Assembly: GCA_035651155.1 (NCBI GenBank)
Contig: DASRGG010000005.1
Location: forward strand, 74,503-138,502
Direction: 5' to 3'
Length of the DNA: 64,000 bases
Origin: Candidatus Limnocylindria bacterium
GTDB taxonomy: Bacteria > Chloroflexota > Limnocylindria > P2-11E
Positions 2,422 to 11,507 of this stretch are shown in pieces. Numbering within the stretch: position 1 is the stretch's first letter; each line of letters begins with the position of its first letter. Both the position numbers and the translations under genes were made by a program. Below the pieces are notes generated by a model, which saw only the letters and a list, made by a program, of their open reading frames with translations, did no database searches and was not told the DNA's origin.

Positions 2422-4560
2422 CTACGGAAGCGAGGTCTGGACCGAGATGTTGCAGGTGCCGTTCGCTACGAGCAGCGGCAGCGTCGGGCTCGAGCCCGAG
2501 GTGATCACTGGACCGTAGTTGTCGGTACCTGCGGTGGTGGTCGAGCGGACCGTGTAGGTCGTCGAGCCACCGCTCGTGGTCTGCGGGTTGGTGGTCAGCA
2601 GCGTCGTCGACGTGCCCGAGTTACGGGAGAACGTGACCGAGTAGCTGCCGGACGACACGGTGTTGCCGAGCTGGTCACGGACCCTGACCGTCGCAACCGA
2701 CGTCGACGAACCGTCATTGACGATCGCGATCGGCGAGAACGAGCAGGTCAGGTGGTCCGCGCCGCCAGCGGTCCACGTCATCGTGGTCGTCACGCTGGTC
2801 AGGCTCGGCGAGGAGAACGTCACGGAGCAGGCGCTGTAGGCGCCGGCGCTCCTGAACGCGAAGGTCGCGCGGCCCGAGGACGCCGTGTCCGTGGTGCTGG
2901 CAACCGCAGCCGCGCCGCCGCCAGCGCCGATGCACGTGTTCGGGTCAAGGGTCGCGGTGACCACGACCGAGCCGGTCGGCCCGGTGACCCGCAGGCCGTT
3001 CACGTCCTGAACGAGGACGCGGACGATGATGCAGGCGGAGTCAGTGATCGTGCCCGCGGCGTAGTTCGCCTTGGTGCACGTGCCGTTCGCCGCCGCAGCC
3101 GGCTTCGGCGACGAGTTGTCCGCGACCGCGAGCTTGTTCGGCGCGCCGACGATCTGCGTCGTCAGCGTGGCCGACGTGCCCGCGATGGACGTGTCGTTCG
3201 TCGTGATCGCGATGATGCAGCTGCCAGGCGTGCTCGTCGACGTGAGCGTGAACGAGACCACGCCGCCCGCAGCGGTGGCCGAGCCACTACCGGCGGAAAC
3301 GCTGAAGCCGGTGCCGGTCGAGCCAGCGCTCAGGGTGCAGACGCTCGCGGAGCTGGAGTCACGCGTCGCGGTGATGACGGTCGAGTTGTCGCTGATCACG
3401 GTGTTGCCGTTGGCGTCCTGGATGGAGACCGTGAGCGCCGACGTCGACGCGGTGTCGGCCGCGATCGGGTTACGGCTCAGGCTGGCACCCGTCTTGGTGG
3501 CCGTGCCCGGGGCCGAGGTCGGAACGATCGCGTTGCAGCCGGTGACGCCCGTGCCGGAGACCGACACCTGCGCGCTACCGGTGTTCGTCGTCGTCGTGGC
3601 GGTCACCGAGGCGACGCCGGCCGACGGCGAGATCGTCTGCGGAGACCCACCGTTCAGCGTGATGAGGGTGGGCGTGTTGTTCGTGAACGTCAGGGCCGGC
3701 GAGCTCGCGTTCGTAACGGTGTTGCCGTTCGCGTCCTTGAGCGTCGCCGTGAACACGATCGTGTTGCTGCCGTTCGCGATGGTCGAGGTCGGGTTGGCGG
3801 AGCAGCTGACCTGCGTCGCCGGGCCGAAGACGCTGACCGGCGCGGAGCCGGTGAGGCCGTCAGAGCTCGTCGCGATGACGGTGCAGGGCTGCGTGGCCGA
3901 GTTCGTCGCCGTGGCGGCGAAGAGGCCCGCCGAGGTGATCGCGCCGCAGCCACCGGTGACCGACCAGCTGATGGTCGCGCCGGTGCCTGCGCCGCTCGCG
4001 GTGAACTGCTGGGTGCCGCCGACGGCCAGCGAGGCCGAGGCCGGCGAGAGGGTCAGGCCACCAGTCGTCGAGCCAGGGGTGGTGTTGACCTGGAAGTACC
4101 CCTGGGGACGGAGCATGAGGCCGCTCGCGATGAGTCCGACGTCACCGTTGAAGGTGGCGGCGGTGCCCGCCGGGGTGCCCGCCGGAACGGTGAAGTTGTA
4201 GATGAAGAAACCGTTCTGGCCCGGGGCAACAGCGGCGGAAACGGTCGCGTACACCGTGCTCGAGAACCATCCCGAGGCGTACGCGGCGTTCGGCGACGCG
4301 ACGTTGCACGTCACCTTGTCGGCGGCGCACACGAGGAGCCCGACGACGCCGGGCTGCCAGGTCTGCGTGCCGTCGTTGAAGAAGATGGCCGAGAACTGAC
4401 CCGAGGCACCGGCCGGCAAGTTGGTGAAGACCGACTCACCGGAGTAGCTCGAGGAGTATCCGCCACCTGCGAGGGCATTGGCCTGGACGGACGTGCTGAA
4501 CGTCAGCAGGAGGCTGAACGCCATCACGAGCGTCAGGGCCGTGCTTGCGATCCTTCGCAT
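2422..4560 (-). CDS. Secreted protein with signal peptide and tandem Big_1 (invasin/intimin-type bacterial Ig-like) repeats
   Basis: N-terminal signal peptide MRRIASTALTLVMAFSLLLTFSTSVQA. Repeated about 90-aa units with Big_1-like signatures (TATLKDANGNTVTN, TVSIQDANGNTV, VRVLVQDVNGLRV, VRVRDQLGNTV). Thr/Ser/Gly rich. Good RBS (GGAAGG) before the ATG. Confidence 0.6.
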   Translation of the reverse strand: MRRIASTALTLVMAFSLLLTFSTSVQANALAGGGYSSSYSGESVFTNLPAGASGQFSAIFFNDGTQTWQPGVVGLLVCAADKVTCNVASPNAAYASGWFSSTVYATVSAAVAPGQNGFFIYNFTVPAGTPAGTAATFNGDVGLIASGLMLRPQGYFQVNTTPGSTTGGLTLSPASASLAVGGTQQFTASGAGTGATISWSVTGGCGAITSAGLFAATATNSATQPCTVIATSSDGLTGSAPVSVFGPATQVSCSANPTSTIANGSNTIVFTATLKDANGNTVTNASSPALTFTNNTPTLITLNGGSPQTISPSAGVASVTATTTTNTGSAQVSVSGTGVTGCNAIVPTSAPGTATKTGASLSRNPIAADTASTSALTVSIQDANGNTVISDNSTVITATRDSSSASVCTLSAGSTGTGFSVSAGSGSATAAGGVVSFTLTSTSTPGSCIIAITTNDTSIAGTSATLTTQIVGAPNKLAVADNSSPKPAAAANGTCTKANYAAGTITDSACIIVRVLVQDVNGLRVTGPTGSVVVTATLDPNTCIGAGGGAAAVASTTDTASSGRATFAFRSAGAYSACSVTFSSPSLTSVTTTMTWTAGGADHLTCSFSPIAIVNDGSSTSVATVRVRDQLGNTVSSGSYSVTFSRNSGTSTTLLTTNPQTTSGGSTTYTVRSTTTAGTDNYGPVITSGSSPTLPLLVANGTCNISVQTSLP

Positions 4561-4865
4561 GTGAACCTTCCTTCTAGAGATTTGATTCGCCTACTTGGTC
4601 GCGATGCGCACGAGGTGATCGCGCGGATGAGTCCTTGTTCCGATGAGCGTGTCCCCCGGTGCTCAGTCACCTCCTTCGATCGAGGTTTTGGCCCCGGAGG
4701 CAACTTCCCGGGGACCTTCGCCAATCGGACGCGGGGACAGAGACGAGGCGGCCAGCCGCGGAACGGCTGCCACCAGGCCGGGTTGTACCAGAAGCGGCCA
4801 AAAGCCGCCAGCCGGCCTCTCCGGCCCGTTGCCATCAAGACGCACAGGTGAACGGGTTTGTCGCA

Positions 4866-7289
4866 TCACGACCGGCCTCCCGGGAGCGTGACGTAGAAGC
4901 CCTCGCGGCCACCCTGCCACGCGCGGCCCAAGAGATCGAACATCGGTTCGGATGCATCTGCTGGCTCGATGTGCGCGACGCCTCCGGGCTGCGCGAGGCC
5001 GTAGGCGAGCACCCCGCCAGCCCGGCTGACGTAGTAGACGAACCCGTTCTGGTCCATCGCGAAGCTCGTGATCGCGCGGCCGACGAGGCCAGCCGTCACG
5101 CTGAGGCCGCCCGTCTGAGCGGGGCGCAATGAGAACGTCTGGCCCGTGTCGGTCCCGACCCAAACCGTGCCCTGGCGGTCGACGGACAGGGCGGTGATCG
5201 AGCCGCCATGTGCGAGCGAGTACTCCGTGGTCTTCGCCGTCAGCGGGTCGTAGACGTCGATCGCCTGACGGTCACCGCCGGCGGTCCAGATGCGCCCGAG
5301 CGGATCGGACGCCACCGCCGCGAGTCCCAGGCCGACCGGGATGCGCTGGACCTGTCCGGTGCGCGGGTCGTAGCTCACGAGGCCGTCCGCGCCGGTCGCG
5401 AGCCAGAGCCGCTCGTCGGGGGAGGCCGTGATCGCCGACGCGTTCGTCGCGTAGGCCAGCGGGATCTTCACGTACTGCAACGTGCTGACCGTGAGCGCGT
5501 AGACCATGCTCGACGGACCGTCGACGAAGTACACGTGGTTCCGGCTGGCCGCCATGCTCGTGATCGTCGCGCCGGCGGGAAGCACCGCGAGCTGCAGCAG
5601 ATCGCCGTTCTGCATGTGCAGCGCGTTGACGCGGTTCGCGTTGTCGAGATACCAGATGCGCGTCCCGTCGCTCGCGACGCGCGTCGGTCGCTGCGACGGG
5701 GAGACGCTCACGAAGTAGGTGCCCGGCCACAGCGGCCGCGCGTTCAGCGGCACGAGGTCATCCTTCTCTTGGGGCGCGACCACGACCGCCGGCTGCGTCG
5801 CCGCGGGCGTCGGTGTCGCGGATGGACCAGGCGTCGTGATCGCGGTCGGCAGCGGTGTGGCTGTCGACGCCGGGTTTGGCGATGTCGCGGCGGCCGTCGT
5901 GAGCGAGGACGGCAACGGAACGTCCTTCACGTCGTTCGCGCCGATCACGGCGAACTTGCGCTCCGACGCGTCGTACGCGAGATCGCGGGCGTTCGCCGGC
6001 GCGTCGATGGTCGCCGCGGGGAGCCCATCTGACGTGAGGATCGTGATGACTCCCCTCCCGGCGAAGTCCGCCAGCACGGCGAACTGGCCGCCCGGGAGCG
6101 CCGCGACCGCGCGCGGCGTTCCGCCGATCGCGAGGCTGGCACCACCACGGCCGAAGGTGATCGTCGCGCCCGCGGCGCCGTTCGAGAGCACCACGTAGTT
6201 GTCGCCACCGATCGCGAACGCGGCGGCGACACCGCCGGGCGCGCTCGCGAGCGGTGCGTAGGTCGCGGCGTCCGCGAGGATGGACGACTTCGCGGAGACG
6301 AGGAGCGCACGCCGGCCGTTCGGCTCGATGACGATGATCTGCGGCGCGACGTCCACCTGGTGGACCGACTCGACCTGCTTGGTGCCGCCGTCGATCGTGG
6401 AGATGACGCCCGTGCCGGACGAGGCCGCGCCGGGCGTCGCGCTCGGACCGGGTCCGACGACCGAGGTCACGACGAGGTTGCCCTTGCCGTCGACCTGAAG
6501 GCTCGTCGGCGTGCCGGGAACGCTCACCGCGGTCGCGGCGGTGATCGCCATGCTCGAGCCGTCGATCTCGGTGACCGTCTTCGCCGTCGAGTCGAGCACG
6601 ATGACGGTGTTCGTCGTGAGGTTGATGGCGAGCGCGGTCGGCCGGCCGCCCACGTGGACGATCGCCTTCTGCGCGAGCGTCGTCAGGTCGAGCGCGGCGA
6701 CCGTCGCCTGATCGGGCTTCAGCACGTAGAGGGTGTTCGTGTACGGGTTGCGCACCGACTGCTGCGCGGCCGCCACGAGCGGCGTGTTCGGCGTTGCGGT
6801 CACCGTCGGCCCACCCTGCGGCAGGCTCAGGACGAGGATGAGCGAGATGGCCGTGACGACGGCGAGGGTCGGGAGCGGCCACGCGCTCACGAGGCGCGGC
6901 ACGCGCACGGTGCGCTCGCGGCCGAGGGCACCGATCGCGGCGTCGACGCGAGCCGACGGGATCGCCACGGGCATCGCCGCGAGCGTCCGGTCCACGGCGG
7001 ACCAGTCGCGGACGGCGGCGCGGCAGTCGCCGCACACGGCAAGGTGCGCGGAGGCCATCGCGGCCTCCTCCGGGCCGAGCTCCCGGTCGATGTTCGCGGA
7101 GAGAAATGCCTCTGCCGCGCCGCAGGAGAGCGCGGGCGAGGCGGCGACGTCCTCGTCGACGGCCGCAAAGAGGCGCAGCGCGCCCGCGCAGGAGGCGCAT
7201 TCGCCGAGGTGGGCCGCGGCGGAGGTGGCGTCGGAAGGCGTGAGCTCGCCGTCGAGGTAGGCGGACAGGAGGTCGTCGCTGAGGTGCAT
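4866..7289 (-). CDS. Anti-sigma factor: two tandem zinc-finger (ZAS, HxxxCxxC) motifs, one TM helix, extracytoplasmic beta-propeller domain
   Basis: The N-terminus carries LSAYLDGELTPSDATSAAAHLGECASC and a second copy LSANIDRELGPEEAAMASAHLAVCGDC, giving two HxxxCxxC motifs. TM segment WPLPTLAVVTAISLILVLSL. The C-terminal half has repeated YVTN/Vgb-lyase-like blades (LWLATGADGLVSYDPRTG, RIWTAGGDRQAIDVYDP, TVWVGTDTGQTFSL). Confidence 0.65.
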   Translation of the reverse strand: MHLSDDLLSAYLDGELTPSDATSAAAHLGECASCAGALRLFAAVDEDVAASPALSCGAAEAFLSANIDRELGPEEAAMASAHLAVCGDCRAAVRDWSAVDRTLAAMPVAIPSARVDAAIGALGRERTVRVPRLVSAWPLPTLAVVTAISLILVLSLPQGGPTVTATPNTPLVAAAQQSVRNPYTNTLYVLKPDQATVAALDLTTLAQKAIVHVGGRPTALAINLTTNTVIVLDSTAKTVTEIDGSSMAITAATAVSVPGTPTSLQVDGKGNLVVTSVVGPGPSATPGAASSGTGVISTIDGGTKQVESVHQVDVAPQIIVIEPNGRRALLVSAKSSILADAATYAPLASAPGGVAAAFAIGGDNYVVLSNGAAGATITFGRGGASLAIGGTPRAVAALPGGQFAVLADFAGRGVITILTSDGLPAATIDAPANARDLAYDASERKFAVIGANDVKDVPLPSSLTTAAATSPNPASTATPLPTAITTPGPSATPTPAATQPAVVVAPQEKDDLVPLNARPLWPGTYFVSVSPSQRPTRVASDGTRIWYLDNANRVNALHMQNGDLLQLAVLPAGATITSMAASRNHVYFVDGPSSMVYALTVSTLQYVKIPLAYATNASAITASPDERLWLATGADGLVSYDPRTGQVQRIPVGLGLAAVASDPLGRIWTAGGDRQAIDVYDPLTAKTTEYSLAHGGSITALSVDRQGTVWVGTDTGQTFSLRPAQTGGLSVTAGLVGRAITSFAMDQNGFVYYVSRAGGVLAYGLAQPGGVAHIEPADASEPMFDLLGRAWQGGREGFYVTLPGGRS

Positions 7290-7541
7290 GCCCTCCTATG
7301 ACGAGCGGGGCGGCGCCGTTGTCGCGCTCTCAGGCCACAGGCCCGTGAGGACCGTAGGGCGCCCGGGCGGCTCTCAGGGCGTCTTCAGGCCGCTTATGGC
7401 CTTGGGGTACAGGCCAGGCTGGACCCATCGGGCTTTCCCGGGGTGTACGCGGCCTCTGAACGCTGCACGGGCGCGCGATCGGGCTTCGGACGACTACCGC
7501 ACGGCGCCCCGGGGTCAGCCGTCGCGTGACAGACTGAACGC

Positions 7542-7892
7542 ATGATCGAGCAGGAGCAGCGGGCGCGTGAGATCCGCCGAGCGCGGCTCGAGGCGGCGCT
7601 TCCGAGCATGGTCGAGAGGCTGAAGCGGCTCGGCGCGCGACGGGTGATCCTGTTCGGCTCGCTGGCGCGTGGCGACGTCGGCAAGCGCAGCGACCTGGAC
7701 CTCATCGTGGTGCTCGACGCCGCACCGCCCCGCTTCCTCGACCGGCTCGCGCTCGTCGACGAGGCGCTGCGGGAGCGGGACGTTCCGCTCGACGTGCTCG
7801 TGTACACGACCTCGGAGCTGGCGGAGCTCTCGCGCACGCGTCCGTTCCTGCGTCGCGCGCTGCGCGAAGGACGCGTCCTGTATGAAGCCTGA
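7542..7892 (+). CDS. Minimal nucleotidyltransferase (MNT/MntA-like, Pol-beta superfamily), antitoxin of a HEPN/MNT module
   Basis: 116 aa with the motif GSLARGDVGKRSDLDLIVVLD (GS...D.D). Overlaps the downstream HEPN ORF by 11 nt. Confidence 0.7.
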   Translation: MIEQEQRAREIRRARLEAALPSMVERLKRLGARRVILFGSLARGDVGKRSDLDLIVVLDAAPPRFLDRLALVDEALRERDVPLDVLVYTTSELAELSRTRPFLRRALREGRVLYEA

Positions 7893-8109
7893 GGCGTCGG
7901 CCGAGGCCGGACGCTGGCTCGCGCAGGCCGAGCGCGACCTCGCCGCGGCACGCGATCTCGAGCGGGCGGGCCACTTCAACGTCGCGTGCTTTCAGGCACA
8001 GCAGGCAGCGGAGAAGGCGGCGACTCACCCAGACGGTGCGCGACGCCGGTCATCAACGGGGACGATCTCGCTGACCTGGCGGACTCGACTGAGGGCAGGG
8101 AGGCTCTAA
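7882..8109 (+). pseudogene. HEPN-domain fragment (N-terminal about 47 aa HEPN-like, C-terminus degenerate or truncated)
   Basis: MKPEASAEAGRWLAQAERDLAAARDLERAGHFNVACFQAQQAAEKA matches the HEPN N-terminal helix pair. Downstream sequence (ATHPDGARRRSS...) does not continue a HEPN fold in any frame, and the C-terminal Rx4-6H motif region is absent. The ORF ends 3 nt inside the convergent sigma-factor gene. Confidence 0.45.
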
Positions 8110-8720
8110 CCCGCCGGTCCTCGAGTTCCGTAGGCCGCCTTGAAGGCGGCCCGCGCCCGGGCGATGCGGCTCCGGACCGCGGTCATGGTCACGCCCTGGA
8201 TGTCGGCGATCTCCTTGTACGAGTAGCCCTCGAGGGCGTGGAGGAGGAGCGCCACGGCGTTCTCCGGCGGAAGGGTGCGCAGCACCGCCTGGACGTGCTC
8301 GCGCTCGCCGACCTCGCCCACCGCGTCCGCGGCGTGCGGTTCGATGGGCGTGTGCTGGACCTGGGTCATGCGGATCCAGGTGAAGCGCCTGCGGCGACGG
8401 AGGTGGTCGATCGCGCAGTTGCTCGCGACGCGGTAGAGCCAGGGCAGGACCTTGGTCCCGCGCTCGAGCTTCGGCAGCGCGTGGAACGCCTTGGTGAAGA
8501 CCTCCTGCGTGACGTCGTCCGCGAGCTCGGCGTCGGAGAGGAAGCGCAGGAGGAACGTGTAGATGCGCGACTTGTACGCGCCGTAGAGCGCGTCGAGCCC
8601 GTCGCGCTGCGATTCCGCCGCGAGTGCCAGGAGCTGCGCGTCCGAGATCACCCCGTGCTCCACGACAGCGACCTTGGCCGGGTCAGCCGAACGGAGCGAC
8701 GCGAACGCGAACACCGGCAC
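8106..8720 (-). CDS. ECF-type RNA polymerase sigma-70 family sigma factor
   Basis: Region 2 (DALYGAYKSRIYTFLLRFLSDAELADDVTQEVFTKAF) and region 4 (LLHALEGYSYKEIADIQGVTMTAVRSRIARAR) are clear. Only 9 nt downstream of the preceding gene in the same orientation. Confidence 0.8.
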   Translation of the reverse strand: MPVFAFASLRSADPAKVAVVEHGVISDAQLLALAAESQRDGLDALYGAYKSRIYTFLLRFLSDAELADDVTQEVFTKAFHALPKLERGTKVLPWLYRVASNCAIDHLRRRRRFTWIRMTQVQHTPIEPHAADAVGEVGEREHVQAVLRTLPPENAVALLLHALEGYSYKEIADIQGVTMTAVRSRIARARAAFKAAYGTRGPAG

Positions 8721-10997: not shown

Positions 10998-11093
10998 GTC
11001 GTGACTAACGACGCAGGTGCCATTTCAGTTTCGTCGGCGGCGACCGCGTGGTGTACGAGCCTCGGGCCTTCGCGAGCTGGGCGCCTCGCTCGT

Positions 11094-11123
11094 TGTACGT
11101 CTACATGTACGTTCAGATGTACG
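11094..11123. promoter_or_regulatory. Three TGTACG hexamers at 12-nt spacing (with a fourth at about 11052) in a divergent intergenic region
   Basis: tTGTACGtctacaTGTACGttcagaTGTACGATG. The last hexamer abuts the ATG at 11124. The region lies between the minus-strand repeat-protein/sigma operon start (10997) and the plus-strand RelE/ParE ORF. Candidate operator. Confidence 0.3.
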
Positions 11124-11507
11124 ATGGCGGCGCTCCTCGCGCGCGACCGGCGCGACGCCGGTGAGACGTCGCGCCCGCTCGCGGAGCTGATCGCCGAGCG
11201 TCGCGGTGCCCGCCCGAAGCGTCGCACGCCGCGACGCGCGCATGCCGCGTATCGCGTCCACGTCCAGCGATCGGCGGAGCGCGATCTCGAGCTCCTCGCG
11301 CCCGCGCTCTTCGATCGGATCGCGAGACGGCTCGTCGCGCTCGGCGCGGTTCCGCGGCCGTCAGGAGCGGAGAAGCTCGTCGCGATCGAGGCCTATCGCC
11401 TTCGTGCGGGCGACGACCGCGTCGTGTACGAGGTCAACGACCGCACGCGCGTCGTGATCGTCACGCGGATCCGGCATCGCCGGGAGGTCTACCGGAGGCT
11501 GCGCTGA
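11124..11507 (+). CDS. RelE/ParE-family type II toxin domain protein with about 40-aa N-terminal extension
   Basis: The C-terminal 85 aa (YRVHVQRSAERDLELL...LVAIEAYRLRAGDDRVVYEVNDRTRVVIVTRIRHRREVY) matches the RelE/ParE consensus (RLRvGdyRviYev.d..v.V.ri.HRreiY). No intact upstream antitoxin ORF found. Confidence 0.55.
   Translation: MAALLARDRRDAGETSRPLAELIAERRGARPKRRTPRRAHAAYRVHVQRSAERDLELLAPALFDRIARRLVALGAVPRPSGAEKLVAIEAYRLRAGDDRVVYEVNDRTRVVIVTRIRHRREVYRRLR

What the first reader, a model, noticed from the sequence alone, without database searches (positions are those of the whole stretch)
4866..7289. Anti-sigma factor with a tandemly duplicated zinc-finger (ZAS) motif and a large extracytoplasmic beta-propeller
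Two consecutive roughly 35-aa segments each carry a HxxxCxxC zinc-binding anti-sigma signature (AAAHLGECASC and ASAHLAVCGDC), preceded by similar LDGEL/IDREL helices. ZAS domains normally occur once. After the TM helix, a propeller of about 450 aa (YVTN/Vgb-lyase-like blades) provides a periplasmic sensing surface. The duplicated redox- or zinc-sensing cytoplasmic module plus an outside sensor suggests dual-input control of the adjacent ECF sigma.
Basis: seen in the sequence. Interest (0 to 1): 0.6.

Follow-up and report, generated by a model that had tools for sequence, protein, structure and literature searches.

The report
Anti-sigma factor with two zinc fingers
This gene encodes a membrane-bound inhibitor of a stress-response sigma factor that carries two complete zinc-binding inhibitor motifs in a row instead of the usual one, plus two outside-facing propeller sensor domains; the doubling is real, ancient and conserved, but what it does is not known.

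Summary
ORF 4866-7289 (-) encodes an 807-aa protein, deposited as a zf-HC2 domain-containing protein from a Candidatus Limnocylindria (Chloroflexota) MAG.

- **Two zinc units.** Each scores above Pfam's zf-HC2 cut-off on its own (40.0 and 34.5 bits against 22.2). Each has a full four-ligand set: H2/H27/C31/C34 (HHCC type) and C56/H82/C86/C89 (CHCC type).
- **Conservation.** All eight ligands are invariant or at least 96% conserved across 70 homologues of 29-74% identity. The duplication predates the family.
- **Canonical part.** Unit 2 plus a conserved fourth helix (aa 113-123) and one TM helix line up with the whole RsiW anti-sigma domain. Unit 1 is an extra three-helix bundle.
- **Outside part.** It is two roughly seven-bladed propellers (aa 175-460 and 515-807), not one. 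The second is related to the sensor domains of Bacteroides hybrid two-component systems.
- **Partner sigma.** The ECF sigma (8106-8720) lies directly upstream in nearly all of about 39 related loci. Only this window has a toxin-antitoxin remnant between them.
- **Promoters.** A conserved ECF-type motif, GCGACAA-N15-CGTC, precedes the anti-sigma gene and the next gene.

Redox or dual-input sensing is untested. Proteins with two to five ZAS units occur in other lineages, and I found no paper describing them. Verdict: a new variant of a known kind.

The parts
4866..7289 (-). Anti-sigma factor gene (807 aa; HZP95158.1, named 'zf-HC2 domain-containing protein', Ca. Limnocylindria)
   Evidence: There are 56 full-length homologues down to 32% identity.
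7137..7289 (-). ZAS unit 1 (aa 1-51): HHCC-type zinc site H2/H27/C31/C34; helices 5-12, 18-30, 32-49
   Evidence: zf-HC2 at 40.0 bits alone. It aligns with ChrR residues 6-78, with H2 matching ChrR H6. H27, C31 and C34 are invariant and H2 is 97% conserved. pLDDT is above 90.
6969..7136 (-). ZAS unit 2 (aa 52-107): CHCC-type zinc site C56/H82/C86/C89; helices 56-67, 73-85, 87-105
   Evidence: zf-HC2 at 34.5 bits alone, covering profile positions 1-35. H82, C86 and C89 are invariant and C56 is 96% conserved. The NCBIfam 'antisigmaE' model matches aa 54-91.
6921..6959 (-). Helix 7 (aa 111-123, motif PSARVDAAIxAL): the probable helix IV of the canonical anti-sigma domain
   Evidence: P111 and D116 are invariant; S112 and L122 are at least 90% conserved. 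The family profile aligns positions 60-131 with RsiW residues 5-77.
6819..6890 (-). Single transmembrane helix (aa ~134-157), N terminus inside
   Evidence: It is the only hydropathy peak in the protein (Kyte-Doolittle, 19-residue window, 2.2). There are 4 Lys/Arg just before it and 1 after.
5910..6767 (-). Extracytoplasmic beta-propeller 1 (aa 175-460), YVTN-like, about 7 blades
   Evidence: AF2 pLDDT is mostly above 90, with about 27 strands. The profile matches the 1L0Q surface-layer YVTN propeller at E 8e-19.
5748..5909 (-). Ala/Thr/Pro-rich disordered linker (aa 461-514)
   Evidence: pLDDT is below 50 for aa 467-504.
4869..5747 (-). Extracytoplasmic beta-propeller 2 (aa 515-807), Reg_prop type, about 7 blades
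   Evidence: Reg_prop at 35.4 bits against a cut-off of 20.4. The profile matches Bacteroides hybrid two-component sensor domains 4A2L and 3VA6 at E 1e-22 and 3e-21. The model has 28 strands.
7300..7325 (-). ECF-type promoter-like motif GCGACAA-N15-CGTC, ending 10 nt before the anti-sigma ATG
   Evidence: It is conserved at this position in 28 non-identical related loci, with a variable spacer of fixed length.
4839..4864 (-). Second GCGACAA-N15-CGTC motif, starting 2 nt after the anti-sigma stop codon and upstream of the Big_1/Invasin_D3 gene
   Evidence: At least 17 of the 19 non-identical instances not placed before an anti-sigma gene lie here, just after the anti-sigma stop. With N15 and no mismatch, these two are the only instances in the 64-kb window.
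8106..8720 (-). Cognate ECF sigma factor (204 aa; HZP95161.1)
   Evidence: Sigma70_r2 and Sigma70_r4_2 and TIGR02937 sigma70-ECF. It lies directly upstream of the anti-sigma gene in nearly all related loci; intergenic gaps measured in 30 pairs were 12-103 bp.
7542..8109 (+). Insertion splitting sigma from anti-sigma: MNT nucleotidyltransferase antitoxin (7542-7892) plus a truncated HEPN ORF (7882-8109)
   Evidence: NTP_transf_2 and MntA. The HEPN match covers only profile positions 3-39 of 117. The insertion is absent at this position in all related loci.
2422..4560 (-). Probable target gene of the sigma: a 712-aa secreted Ig-like repeat protein (Big_1/Invasin_D3)
   Evidence: It is syntenic in L001 and L003-L005 and is preceded by the second promoter-like motif.

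Best explanation
**Identity.** The gene encodes a single-pass, N-in membrane anti-sigma factor of the class I, zinc-binding (ZAS) kind. It holds the ECF sigma encoded at 8106-8720 inactive.

**Canonical part.** Three pieces together correspond to a complete canonical RsiW-like anti-sigma domain: the membrane-proximal ZAS unit (aa 52-107, CHCC zinc site), the conserved helix 113-123 acting as helix IV, and the TM helix.

**Extra unit.** The N-terminal ZAS unit (aa 1-51, HHCC zinc site) is an additional three-helix zinc bundle. It arose by an ancient duplication and is kept under the same purifying selection as unit 2. The most likely role is a second contact with the sigma, either clamping a second surface of the same molecule or holding a second molecule.

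**Signal and release.** The signal is received outside the cell by two tandem beta-propellers. The second is homologous to the glycan-binding sensor propellers of Bacteroides hybrid two-component systems. In a locus full of cell-wall and surface-polysaccharide genes, the ligand is probably a glycan or other envelope-derived molecule. Release of sigma would then follow the usual route for membrane ZAS factors, which is regulated proteolysis.

**Output.** Free sigma would transcribe from the two conserved GCGACAA-N15-CGTC promoters. One gives negative feedback on the anti-sigma gene, probably as a leaderless or near-leaderless mRNA. The other drives the downstream Ig-like surface protein gene through a conserved structured leader.

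**Shown and inferred.**
- Shown: domain anatomy, ligand conservation, synteny and motif conservation.
- Inferred: zinc binding, sigma binding by either unit, the ligand, proteolysis and promoter use.
For: **Two independent ZAS units.**
- Each gives a zf-HC2 hit above the cut-off on its own.
- The eight ligands are invariant or at least 96% conserved in 70 homologues of 29-74% identity.
- They include all five cysteines of the 807-aa protein.

**Ancient duplication under selection.**
- Orthologous units are 42-44% identical; paralogous units are 34-35% identical.
- Both units are equally conserved (mean top-residue frequency 0.58 and 0.57).
- The HHCC+CHCC order holds in 86 of 99 family members.

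**Fold.**
- AlphaFold gives two confident three-helix bundles plus a seventh helix.
- The top-ranked Foldseek PDB hits are class I anti-sigma domains: ChrR, RsiW, MucA, RslA and DdvA. RslA superposes at 1.9-2.4 A over 44-50 residues.

**Unit 2 is the canonical part.**
- The family profile aligns positions 60-131 with RsiW residues 5-77. ChrR and DdvA align with unit 1.
- Single-ZAS anti-sigma proteins match query residues ~53-157.

**Partner sigma.** It lies directly upstream in nearly all of about 39 related loci.

**Promoter motif.** It is conserved at two syntenic sites in 28 and at least 17 distinct loci.

**Sensor.** Propeller 2 matches HTCS sensor domains at E 1e-22.

**Locus.** It holds SpoIID, Amidase_2, Wzy_C and polysaccharide synthesis genes.
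Against: - Which unit touches sigma is therefore inferred from alignments only.
- pTM of the cytoplasmic model is 0.47. The relative position of the two bundles is not defined.
- Foldseek E-values for the small helical domain are weak (0.5-2).
- Unit 1 has no helix IV of its own.
- The -10 element lies only about 10 nt from the start codon, which requires a leaderless transcript. The SD-like sequence in close relatives argues that read-through from the sigma gene also matters.
- No ligand, protease or zinc measurement exists.
Confidence: 0.6

Rival explanations
1. **Multivalent sigma sink.** Each ZAS unit is an independent sigma-binding site, so one anti-sigma molecule sequesters two sigma molecules. 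Relatives with more units would hold up to five. Destroying one anti-sigma would release several sigmas at once.
For: - Both units keep the full ligand set and the LSAxxDxEL helix-I motif.
- Proteins with three to five ZAS units exist. In one (P0100: five HxxxCxxC motifs, four zf-HC2 stretches by Pfam) the gene sits directly after a single ECF sigma gene.
- In proteins with repeats of about 70 aa, each repeat has room for a fourth helix after the zinc motif, on my reading of the printed sequences; no structure prediction was run for them.
- ChrR residues 5-79 (all four helices) align with aa 4-76, so helix I of unit 2 could serve as helix IV of unit 1.
Against: - In this family the period is only 55 aa, and unit 1 has no helix IV of its own.
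- Helix I of unit 2 cannot both pack in its own bundle and bind sigma in the canonical way.
- Two sigmas bound within 55 residues may clash.
- No stoichiometry data exist.
Confidence: 0.2
2. **Dual input.** The cytoplasmic ZAS module senses thiol oxidation or zinc status, and the propellers sense an outside signal. Either signal can release sigma.
For: - Unit 2 is CHCC type. C56 lies 26 residues before H82, the arrangement that lets RsrA form its trigger disulfide (PMC4960319).
- C56 is 96% conserved, and the H+C order is conserved in 86 of 99 members.
Against: - Unit 1 is HHCC type, which that paper says cannot sense disulfide or peroxide stress.
- The protein is far below the RsrA equivalog cut-off (29.7 against 62.5 bits).
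- CHCC is necessary for redox sensing, not sufficient.
- Membrane ZAS factors with large outside domains, such as RsiW, are controlled by proteolysis.
- Nothing thiol-related lies next to the gene.
Confidence: 0.12
3. **Unit 1 does not touch sigma.** It is a structural or accessory zinc bundle. It might dimerise the protein, dock another partner, or shield the N terminus from cytoplasmic proteases.
For: - Unit 2, helix 7 and the TM helix already make a complete canonical anti-sigma domain.
- The low pTM (0.47) is compatible with two loosely coupled bundles.
Against: - Unit 1 keeps the helix-I and helix-III residues typical of sigma-binding ZAS domains.
- It is the part that best matches the ChrR and DdvA anti-sigma domains.
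- It is as conserved as unit 2.
Confidence: 0.25
4. **Artefact.** The first ZAS unit is not translated (wrong start codon), or the similarity between the units is due to chance or low complexity.
For: The sequence is Ala-rich and the DNA has about 70% G+C, so spurious long ORFs abound.
Against: - The reading frame, the start (MHLS...) and all ligands are conserved in 70 homologues.
- A Shine-Dalgarno sequence and a conserved promoter-like motif lie just upstream.
- zf-HC2 E-values are 4e-10 and 2e-8.
Confidence: 0.01

Closest known systems
RsiW of Bacillus subtilis (membrane ZAS anti-sigma factor of SigW; PDB 5WUQ)
   Same: - It has a cytoplasmic ZAS anti-sigma domain followed by one TM helix and an extracytoplasmic domain.
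- The family profile aligns positions 60-131 (unit 2 plus helix 7) with RsiW residues 5-77.
- RsiW is among the best Foldseek hits (TM 0.64 on the target).
   Different: - RsiW has one ZAS unit, of HHCC type, and a small outside domain.
- Here there is an extra N-terminal HHCC unit, the canonical unit is CHCC, and the outside part is 650 aa with two propellers.
- Proteolytic control is assumed here, not shown.
ChrR of Rhodobacter sphaeroides (HHCC ZAS plus a cupin sensor; PDB 2Q1Z, 2Z2S)
   Same: - It is the best sequence match in the PDB for unit 1.
- ChrR residue H6 aligns with H2, and the ChrR HxxxCxxC motif aligns with H27/C31/C34.
- Both combine a ZAS domain with a separate sensor domain.
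   Different: ChrR is soluble, has one ZAS unit and senses singlet oxygen through a cupin domain.
RsrA of Streptomyces coelicolor (CHCC redox-sensing ZAS)
   Same: Unit 2 has the CHCC ligand pattern with the N-terminal Cys 26 residues before the His, as in RsrA.
   Different: [quoted passage not shown]
- The RsrA equivalog model scores 29.7 against a cut-off of 62.5, and the match is to unit 1, not unit 2.
- There is no evidence of redox control here.
Periplasmic sensor domains of Bacteroides hybrid two-component systems (BT4663, PDB 4A2L/4A2M; 3VA6, 3OTT, 3V9F)
   Same: - Propeller 2 matches them at E 1e-22 to 3e-16 and carries a Reg_prop repeat.
- Both have two tandem propellers outside the membrane.
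- From my knowledge of the published work, those domains bind oligosaccharide signals.
   Different: - The output here is an anti-sigma domain, not a histidine kinase/response regulator.
- No Pfam match to the C-terminal Ig-like (YYY) domain that those sensors carry, by my knowledge, appeared.
- Propeller 1 is YVTN-like rather than Reg_prop.
Tandem and multi-ZAS anti-sigma-like proteins of other lineages (Acidimicrobiia ~205-aa proteins such as the L008 ORF; P0100 with five motifs)
   Same: - They have two or more complete zf-HC2 units before one TM helix.
- The gene lies directly after a single ECF sigma gene.
   Different: - Their repeat periods are 62-105 aa. In the proteins with periods near 70 aa there is room for a fourth helix after the zinc motif, on my reading of the printed sequences.
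- Their ligand-type combinations differ: C+H, C+C, H+H.
- They have small or different outside domains.
- They appear to be undescribed.

Membership tests
ZAS / zf-HC2 class I anti-sigma domain | HxxxCxxC motif | tested here: met
   It is present twice (H27-C31-C34 and H82-C86-C89). It is invariant in 70 homologues.
ZAS / zf-HC2 class I anti-sigma domain | Fourth zinc ligand (Cys or His) 23-26 residues N-terminal to the motif (definition in PMC4960319) | tested here: met
   H2 lies at -25 (97% conserved) and C56 at -26 (96% conserved).
ZAS / zf-HC2 class I anti-sigma domain | Pfam PF13490 score above the gathering cut-off | tested here: met
   The two units, scanned separately, score 40.0 and 34.5 bits against 22.2.
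ZAS / zf-HC2 class I anti-sigma domain | Gene located directly downstream of an ECF sigma gene | tested here: met
   This holds in nearly all of about 39 related loci; intergenic gaps measured in 30 pairs were 12-103 bp. In this window the pair is split by an 816-bp toxin-antitoxin insertion.
ZAS / zf-HC2 class I anti-sigma domain | Four-helix anti-sigma domain fold (helices I-III plus IV) | tested here: inconclusive
   Unit 2 plus helix 7 fits. Unit 1 has only three helices of its own. Foldseek E-values are weak.
ZAS / zf-HC2 class I anti-sigma domain | Binds zinc and binds and inhibits its sigma | not testable with these tools
This needs biochemistry.
RsrA-type redox-sensing ZAS | CHCC ligand set with an N-terminal trigger cysteine | tested here: inconclusive
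   Unit 2 is CHCC and unit 1 is HHCC. CHCC is necessary for redox sensing but not sufficient.
RsrA-type redox-sensing ZAS | NCBIfam TIGR03988 equivalog score at or above the cut-off | tested here: not met
   29.7 bits against 62.5.
RsrA-type redox-sensing ZAS | Soluble single-domain protein | tested here: not met
   It has one TM helix and a 650-aa outside region.
RsiW-type membrane ZAS controlled by regulated proteolysis | Anti-sigma domain, then a single TM helix, then an extracytoplasmic domain | tested here: met
RsiW-type membrane ZAS controlled by regulated proteolysis | Site-1 and site-2 cleavage releases sigma | not testable with these tools
   No protease gene was sought or found next to the locus.
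HTCS-type Reg_prop sensor propellers | Reg_prop repeat above the Pfam cut-off, and a profile match to solved HTCS sensor domains | tested here: met
   Reg_prop scores 35.4 against 20.4. 4A2L matches at E 9.6e-23 and 3VA6 at 2.8e-21.
HTCS-type Reg_prop sensor propellers | Two seven-bladed propellers followed by an Ig-like YYY domain (domain layout from my knowledge of the published structures) | tested here: not met
   There are two propellers of about 7 blades (27-28 strands each). No Pfam match to a YYY domain appeared, and propeller 1 is YVTN-like.
HTCS-type Reg_prop sensor propellers | Binds an oligosaccharide signal | not testable with these tools
   This is inferred only from homology and from the envelope and glycan gene neighbourhood.

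The most novel reading that the evidence does not exclude
Anti-sigma factors with several ZAS units would form an unrecognised class of multivalent sigma sinks. Each zinc bundle would hold a separate sigma molecule, or a separate sigma domain.

This Limnocylindria family has a conserved heterotandem of one redox-inert (HHCC) and one potentially redox-labile (CHCC) site. Cytoplasmic oxidation would release only part of the sigma pool. Proteolysis triggered by the outside propellers would release all of it. One protein would then give graded, two-channel control.
Probability: 0.15. Interest if true: 0.75.

Novelty: new variant of a known kind. Interest (0 to 1): 0.5.

Why it matters
ECF sigma/anti-sigma pairs are the third major mode of bacterial signal transduction, and the field's working model is one anti-sigma domain per sigma. 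Several findings here do not fit that model cleanly:

- A conserved family carries two complete zinc sites of different chemical type in one cytoplasmic domain.
- Relatives carry up to five such units next to a single sigma gene.
- The anti-sigma domain is joined to a sensor type so far described in two-component systems (HTCS-like propellers).
- The family comes with a clearly defined candidate promoter motif and target gene.

The unknowns are binding stoichiometry, whether one protein can integrate inside and outside signals, and how such repeats evolve. The system could be tested directly by expressing the proteins in another host, although the source organisms are known here only from metagenome assemblies.

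Tried and rejected
- **Sigma/anti-sigma complex model.** Which unit binds sigma therefore stays inferred.
- **Genome-contig scans.** The single-protein scan found no relatives. The alignment scan was swamped by the generic LSAYLDGE pattern and returned other ZAS proteins, not the family. It still served as a rough sample: 9 of 43 had two ZAS motifs.
- **Full 70-sequence alignment for locus finding.** It was too divergent to use.
- **Homologue search with unit 2 alone.** It returned a single hit because of the word index.
- **Literature.** Searches for tandem, double or multiple ZAS or zf-HC2 units, and for anti-sigma factors with propellers, found nothing relevant.
- **Promoter upstream of the sigma.** A relaxed motif search gave no convincing site before the sigma gene or the upstream genes. 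Autoregulation of the sigma itself is not supported.
- **Rfam scan of the conserved leader.** No family matched.
- **Rejected readings.**
  - Wrong start codon or a chance repeat.
  - A single propeller of about 450 aa.
  - RsrA orthology.
Full report
**1. The observation**

ORF 4866-7289 on the minus strand encodes 807 aa. A strong Shine-Dalgarno sequence (AGGAGGG) lies 4 nt before the ATG. The exact protein is in public databases as HZP95158.1, 'zf-HC2 domain-containing protein', from a Candidatus Limnocylindria (Chloroflexota) metagenome-assembled genome.

Pfam finds zf-HC2 with two matched stretches. Scanned separately, aa 1-51 scores 40.0 bits and aa 52-134 scores 34.5 bits. The gathering cut-off is 22.2. 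The two segments are 48% identical over 46 aa, with a register offset of 55 residues.

Each unit has the HxxxCxxC motif. Each also has the fourth zinc ligand at the distance that defines ZAS proteins (23-26 residues upstream; PMC4960319):
- Unit 1: H2, H27, C31, C34, which is HHCC type.
- Unit 2: C56, H82, C86, C89, which is CHCC type.

The PDB sequence search aligns H2, H27, C31 and C34 with ChrR residues H6, H31, C35 and C38. The five cysteines in these sites are the only cysteines in the whole protein. The tandem ZAS is therefore real and complete, not a chance motif.

**2. Conservation**

A homologue search found 56 proteins of about 800 aa, down to 32% identity at full coverage. Where named, they come from Limnocylindria or Chloroflexota. 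An exhaustive HMMER search with the N-terminal 160 aa added more. Almost all keep both motifs.

In a 70-sequence alignment (29-74% identity to the query), H27, C31, C34, H82, C86 and C89 are invariant. H2 and C56 are 97% and 96% conserved.

Orthologous units are 42-44% identical between proteins. The two units of one protein are 35% identical on average, the same as unit 1 against unit 2 of different proteins (34%). Both units are equally conserved. The duplication therefore predates the family, there is no concerted evolution, and both copies are under purifying selection. The HHCC-then-CHCC order holds in 86 of 99 members with the 55-aa period.

**3. Anatomy**

Two AlphaFold2 models were made: the full length (pLDDT 85.7) and aa 1-132 (pLDDT 88.2). 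Both give the following layout:

| Region | Residues | Feature |
|---|---|---|
| Unit 1 | 5-12, 18-30, 32-49 | three helices |
| Unit 2 | 56-67, 73-85, 87-105 | three helices |
| Helix 7 | 113-123 | conserved motif PSARVDAAIxAL |
| TM | ~134-157 | single hydrophobic segment, basic residues on its N-terminal side |
| Propeller 1 | 175-460 | all-beta, 27-28 strands, about seven blades |
| Linker | 467-504 | disordered, Ala/Thr/Pro-rich |
| Propeller 2 | 515-807 | all-beta, 27-28 strands, about seven blades |

Foldseek matches the full model to tandem seven-bladed propeller proteins. For the cytoplasmic model, the top-ranked PDB hits are class I anti-sigma domains: ChrR, RsiW, MucA, RslA and DdvA. 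RslA superposes at 1.9-2.4 A over 44-50 residues. E-values are weak, as expected for a 50-residue helical unit. pTM of 0.47 means the relative position of the two bundles is not defined.

A profile of the family against PDB sequences gave these matches:
- Propeller 2 matches the periplasmic sensor domains of Bacteroides hybrid two-component systems (4A2L at E 1e-22; 3VA6 and 3OTT at 3e-21).
- Propeller 1 matches a YVTN surface-layer propeller (1L0Q, E 8e-19).
- Profile positions 60-131 match RsiW residues 5-77.
- Unit 1 matches ChrR and DdvA.

Single-ZAS anti-sigma proteins in the exhaustive search align with query residues ~53-157. I conclude that unit 2, helix 7 and the TM helix form the canonical anti-sigma factor, and that unit 1 is an added N-terminal three-helix zinc bundle.

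**4. Context**

- **Gene order.** In four long related contigs the order is SpoIID-like, Amidase_2 protein, Kelch propeller, ~590-aa protein, CarboxypepD_reg protein, ECF sigma, this anti-sigma, Big_1/Invasin_D3 protein, Wzy_C protein and polysaccharide synthesis genes. The window has the same genes except that the Kelch gene was not recovered there.
- **Partner sigma.** In nearly all of about 39 related loci that reach far enough, the sigma gene lies directly upstream on the same strand. Gaps measured in 30 pairs were 12-103 bp.
- **Insertion.** Only in this window is the pair split. An MNT antitoxin gene and a HEPN ORF truncated to profile positions 3-39 of 117 lie between them on the opposite strand.

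**5. Promoters**

Two copies of GCGACAA-N15-CGTC flank the anti-sigma gene in the window, at 7300-7325 and 4839-4864 on the minus strand. With N15 and no mismatch they are the only instances in 64 kb.

In the window alone this count is not significant: 16 of 100 shuffles reached two matches. The weight comes from conservation. The same motif, with the same spacer length and a variable spacer sequence, lies just before the anti-sigma start in 28 distinct related loci. It also lies just after the anti-sigma stop in at least 17 of the 19 further distinct instances.

The layout fits the AAC-type -35 and CGT-type -10 elements of ECF promoters (my knowledge of the Bacillus SigW, SigX and SigM consensus sequences). 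The upstream copy ends about 10 nt before the start codon, which implies a leaderless or near-leaderless mRNA (inference).

The pattern suggests negative feedback on the anti-sigma gene, and sigma-dependent expression of the downstream Ig-like surface protein. It also explains why an insertion between sigma and anti-sigma is tolerated. No convincing copy precedes the sigma gene.

**6. Mechanism**

The best-supported reading is a membrane ZAS anti-sigma factor for the neighbouring ECF sigma.
- The signal is sensed outside by HTCS-like tandem propellers. It is probably a glycan or other envelope-derived ligand, given the homology and the neighbourhood.
- Release would be by regulated proteolysis, as for RsiW. 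Both of these points are inferred.
- Unit 1 most likely makes an additional contact with sigma.

The rivals are a 1:2 sigma sink, a redox input through the CHCC unit, and an accessory role without sigma contact.

On redox sensing:
- Unit 1 is HHCC, which PMC4960319 says cannot sense disulfide stress.
- Unit 2 is CHCC, which is necessary but not sufficient.
- The RsrA equivalog model is far below its cut-off.

**7. How unusual is it**

A single ZAS unit is the rule. In a rough sample of 43 ZAS genes from species-representative genomes, 32 had one motif and 9 had two. All nine were Acidimicrobiia or other Actinomycetota proteins of ~205-260 aa with a 62- or 67-aa period, and the one examined (L008) lies next to an ECF sigma.

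The 142 further proteins returned by the exhaustive search (beyond those already found) break down as follows:

| HxxxCxxC motifs | Proteins |
|---|---|
| 2 | 82 |
| 3 | 22 |
| 4 | 6 |
| 5 | 1 |

The protein with five motifs follows a single ECF sigma gene. This sample is biased by the tandem query.

Full-text searches found no paper that describes tandem or multiple ZAS units, or a ZAS anti-sigma factor with propeller sensors. The library covers open-access papers only.

**8. Verdict**

I rate it a new variant of a known kind, of moderate interest.

Noticed in passing
window 4561-4838 (-): The ~280-nt leader lies between the second promoter-like motif and the Big_1/Invasin_D3 gene. Its first ~200 nt are more conserved than the flanking proteins, with blocks such as GCTTCTGGTACAAC and GGTCCCCGGGAAGTTGCCTCCGGGGCC. 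RNAalifold predicts 48 pairs, 9 of them with compensatory changes. No Rfam family matches. It is a candidate new structured cis-regulatory RNA under the ECF sigma.
   Followed up: partly
window 7542-8109 (+): An MNT-type nucleotidyltransferase antitoxin gene (7542-7892) and a HEPN ORF truncated to the first third of the domain (7882-8109) are inserted between sigma and anti-sigma. They converge on the end of the sigma gene. The insertion is absent at this position in all related loci.
   Followed up: partly
window 11001-11507 (+): A ParE-toxin-like ORF is inserted upstream of the 591-aa gene of the conserved cluster. L001 has a ParE gene at the same place, and L005 has an MNT/HEPN pair nearby. 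Toxin-antitoxin cassettes seem to land repeatedly in the intergenic gaps of this cluster.
   Followed up: no
window 264-21038 (-): A deeply conserved envelope gene cluster surrounds the sigma/anti-sigma pair: a SpoIID-like 1036-aa protein, an Amidase_2 1153-aa protein, a Kelch protein (seen in the related loci; its gene was not recovered in the window), a 591-aa CARDB-like protein, a CarboxypepD_reg protein, a Big_1/Invasin protein and a Wzy_C/TPR protein.
   Followed up: partly
L086 3415-5790; P0100, P0101, P0104, P0160: Some proteins carry four or five ZAS motifs. In L086 the five-motif protein overlaps the end of a single ECF sigma gene and is followed by a Metal_resist (Spy/CpxP-like) gene. 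P0101 has the same downstream neighbour.
   Followed up: partly
L008 5468-6579: In an Acidimicrobiia genome, an ECF sigma gene is followed by a 204-aa anti-sigma with two zf-HC2 units in the opposite order (CHCC then HHCC) and a 62-aa period. Similar genes occur in at least nine species-representative genomes.
   Followed up: partly
window 8646-8720 (-), sigma aa 1-25: The sigma has an N-terminal extension of about 25 aa before region 2.1, with a conserved AFAALR-like motif across the family (alignment consensus). Whether it contacts the extra ZAS unit is unknown.
   Followed up: no
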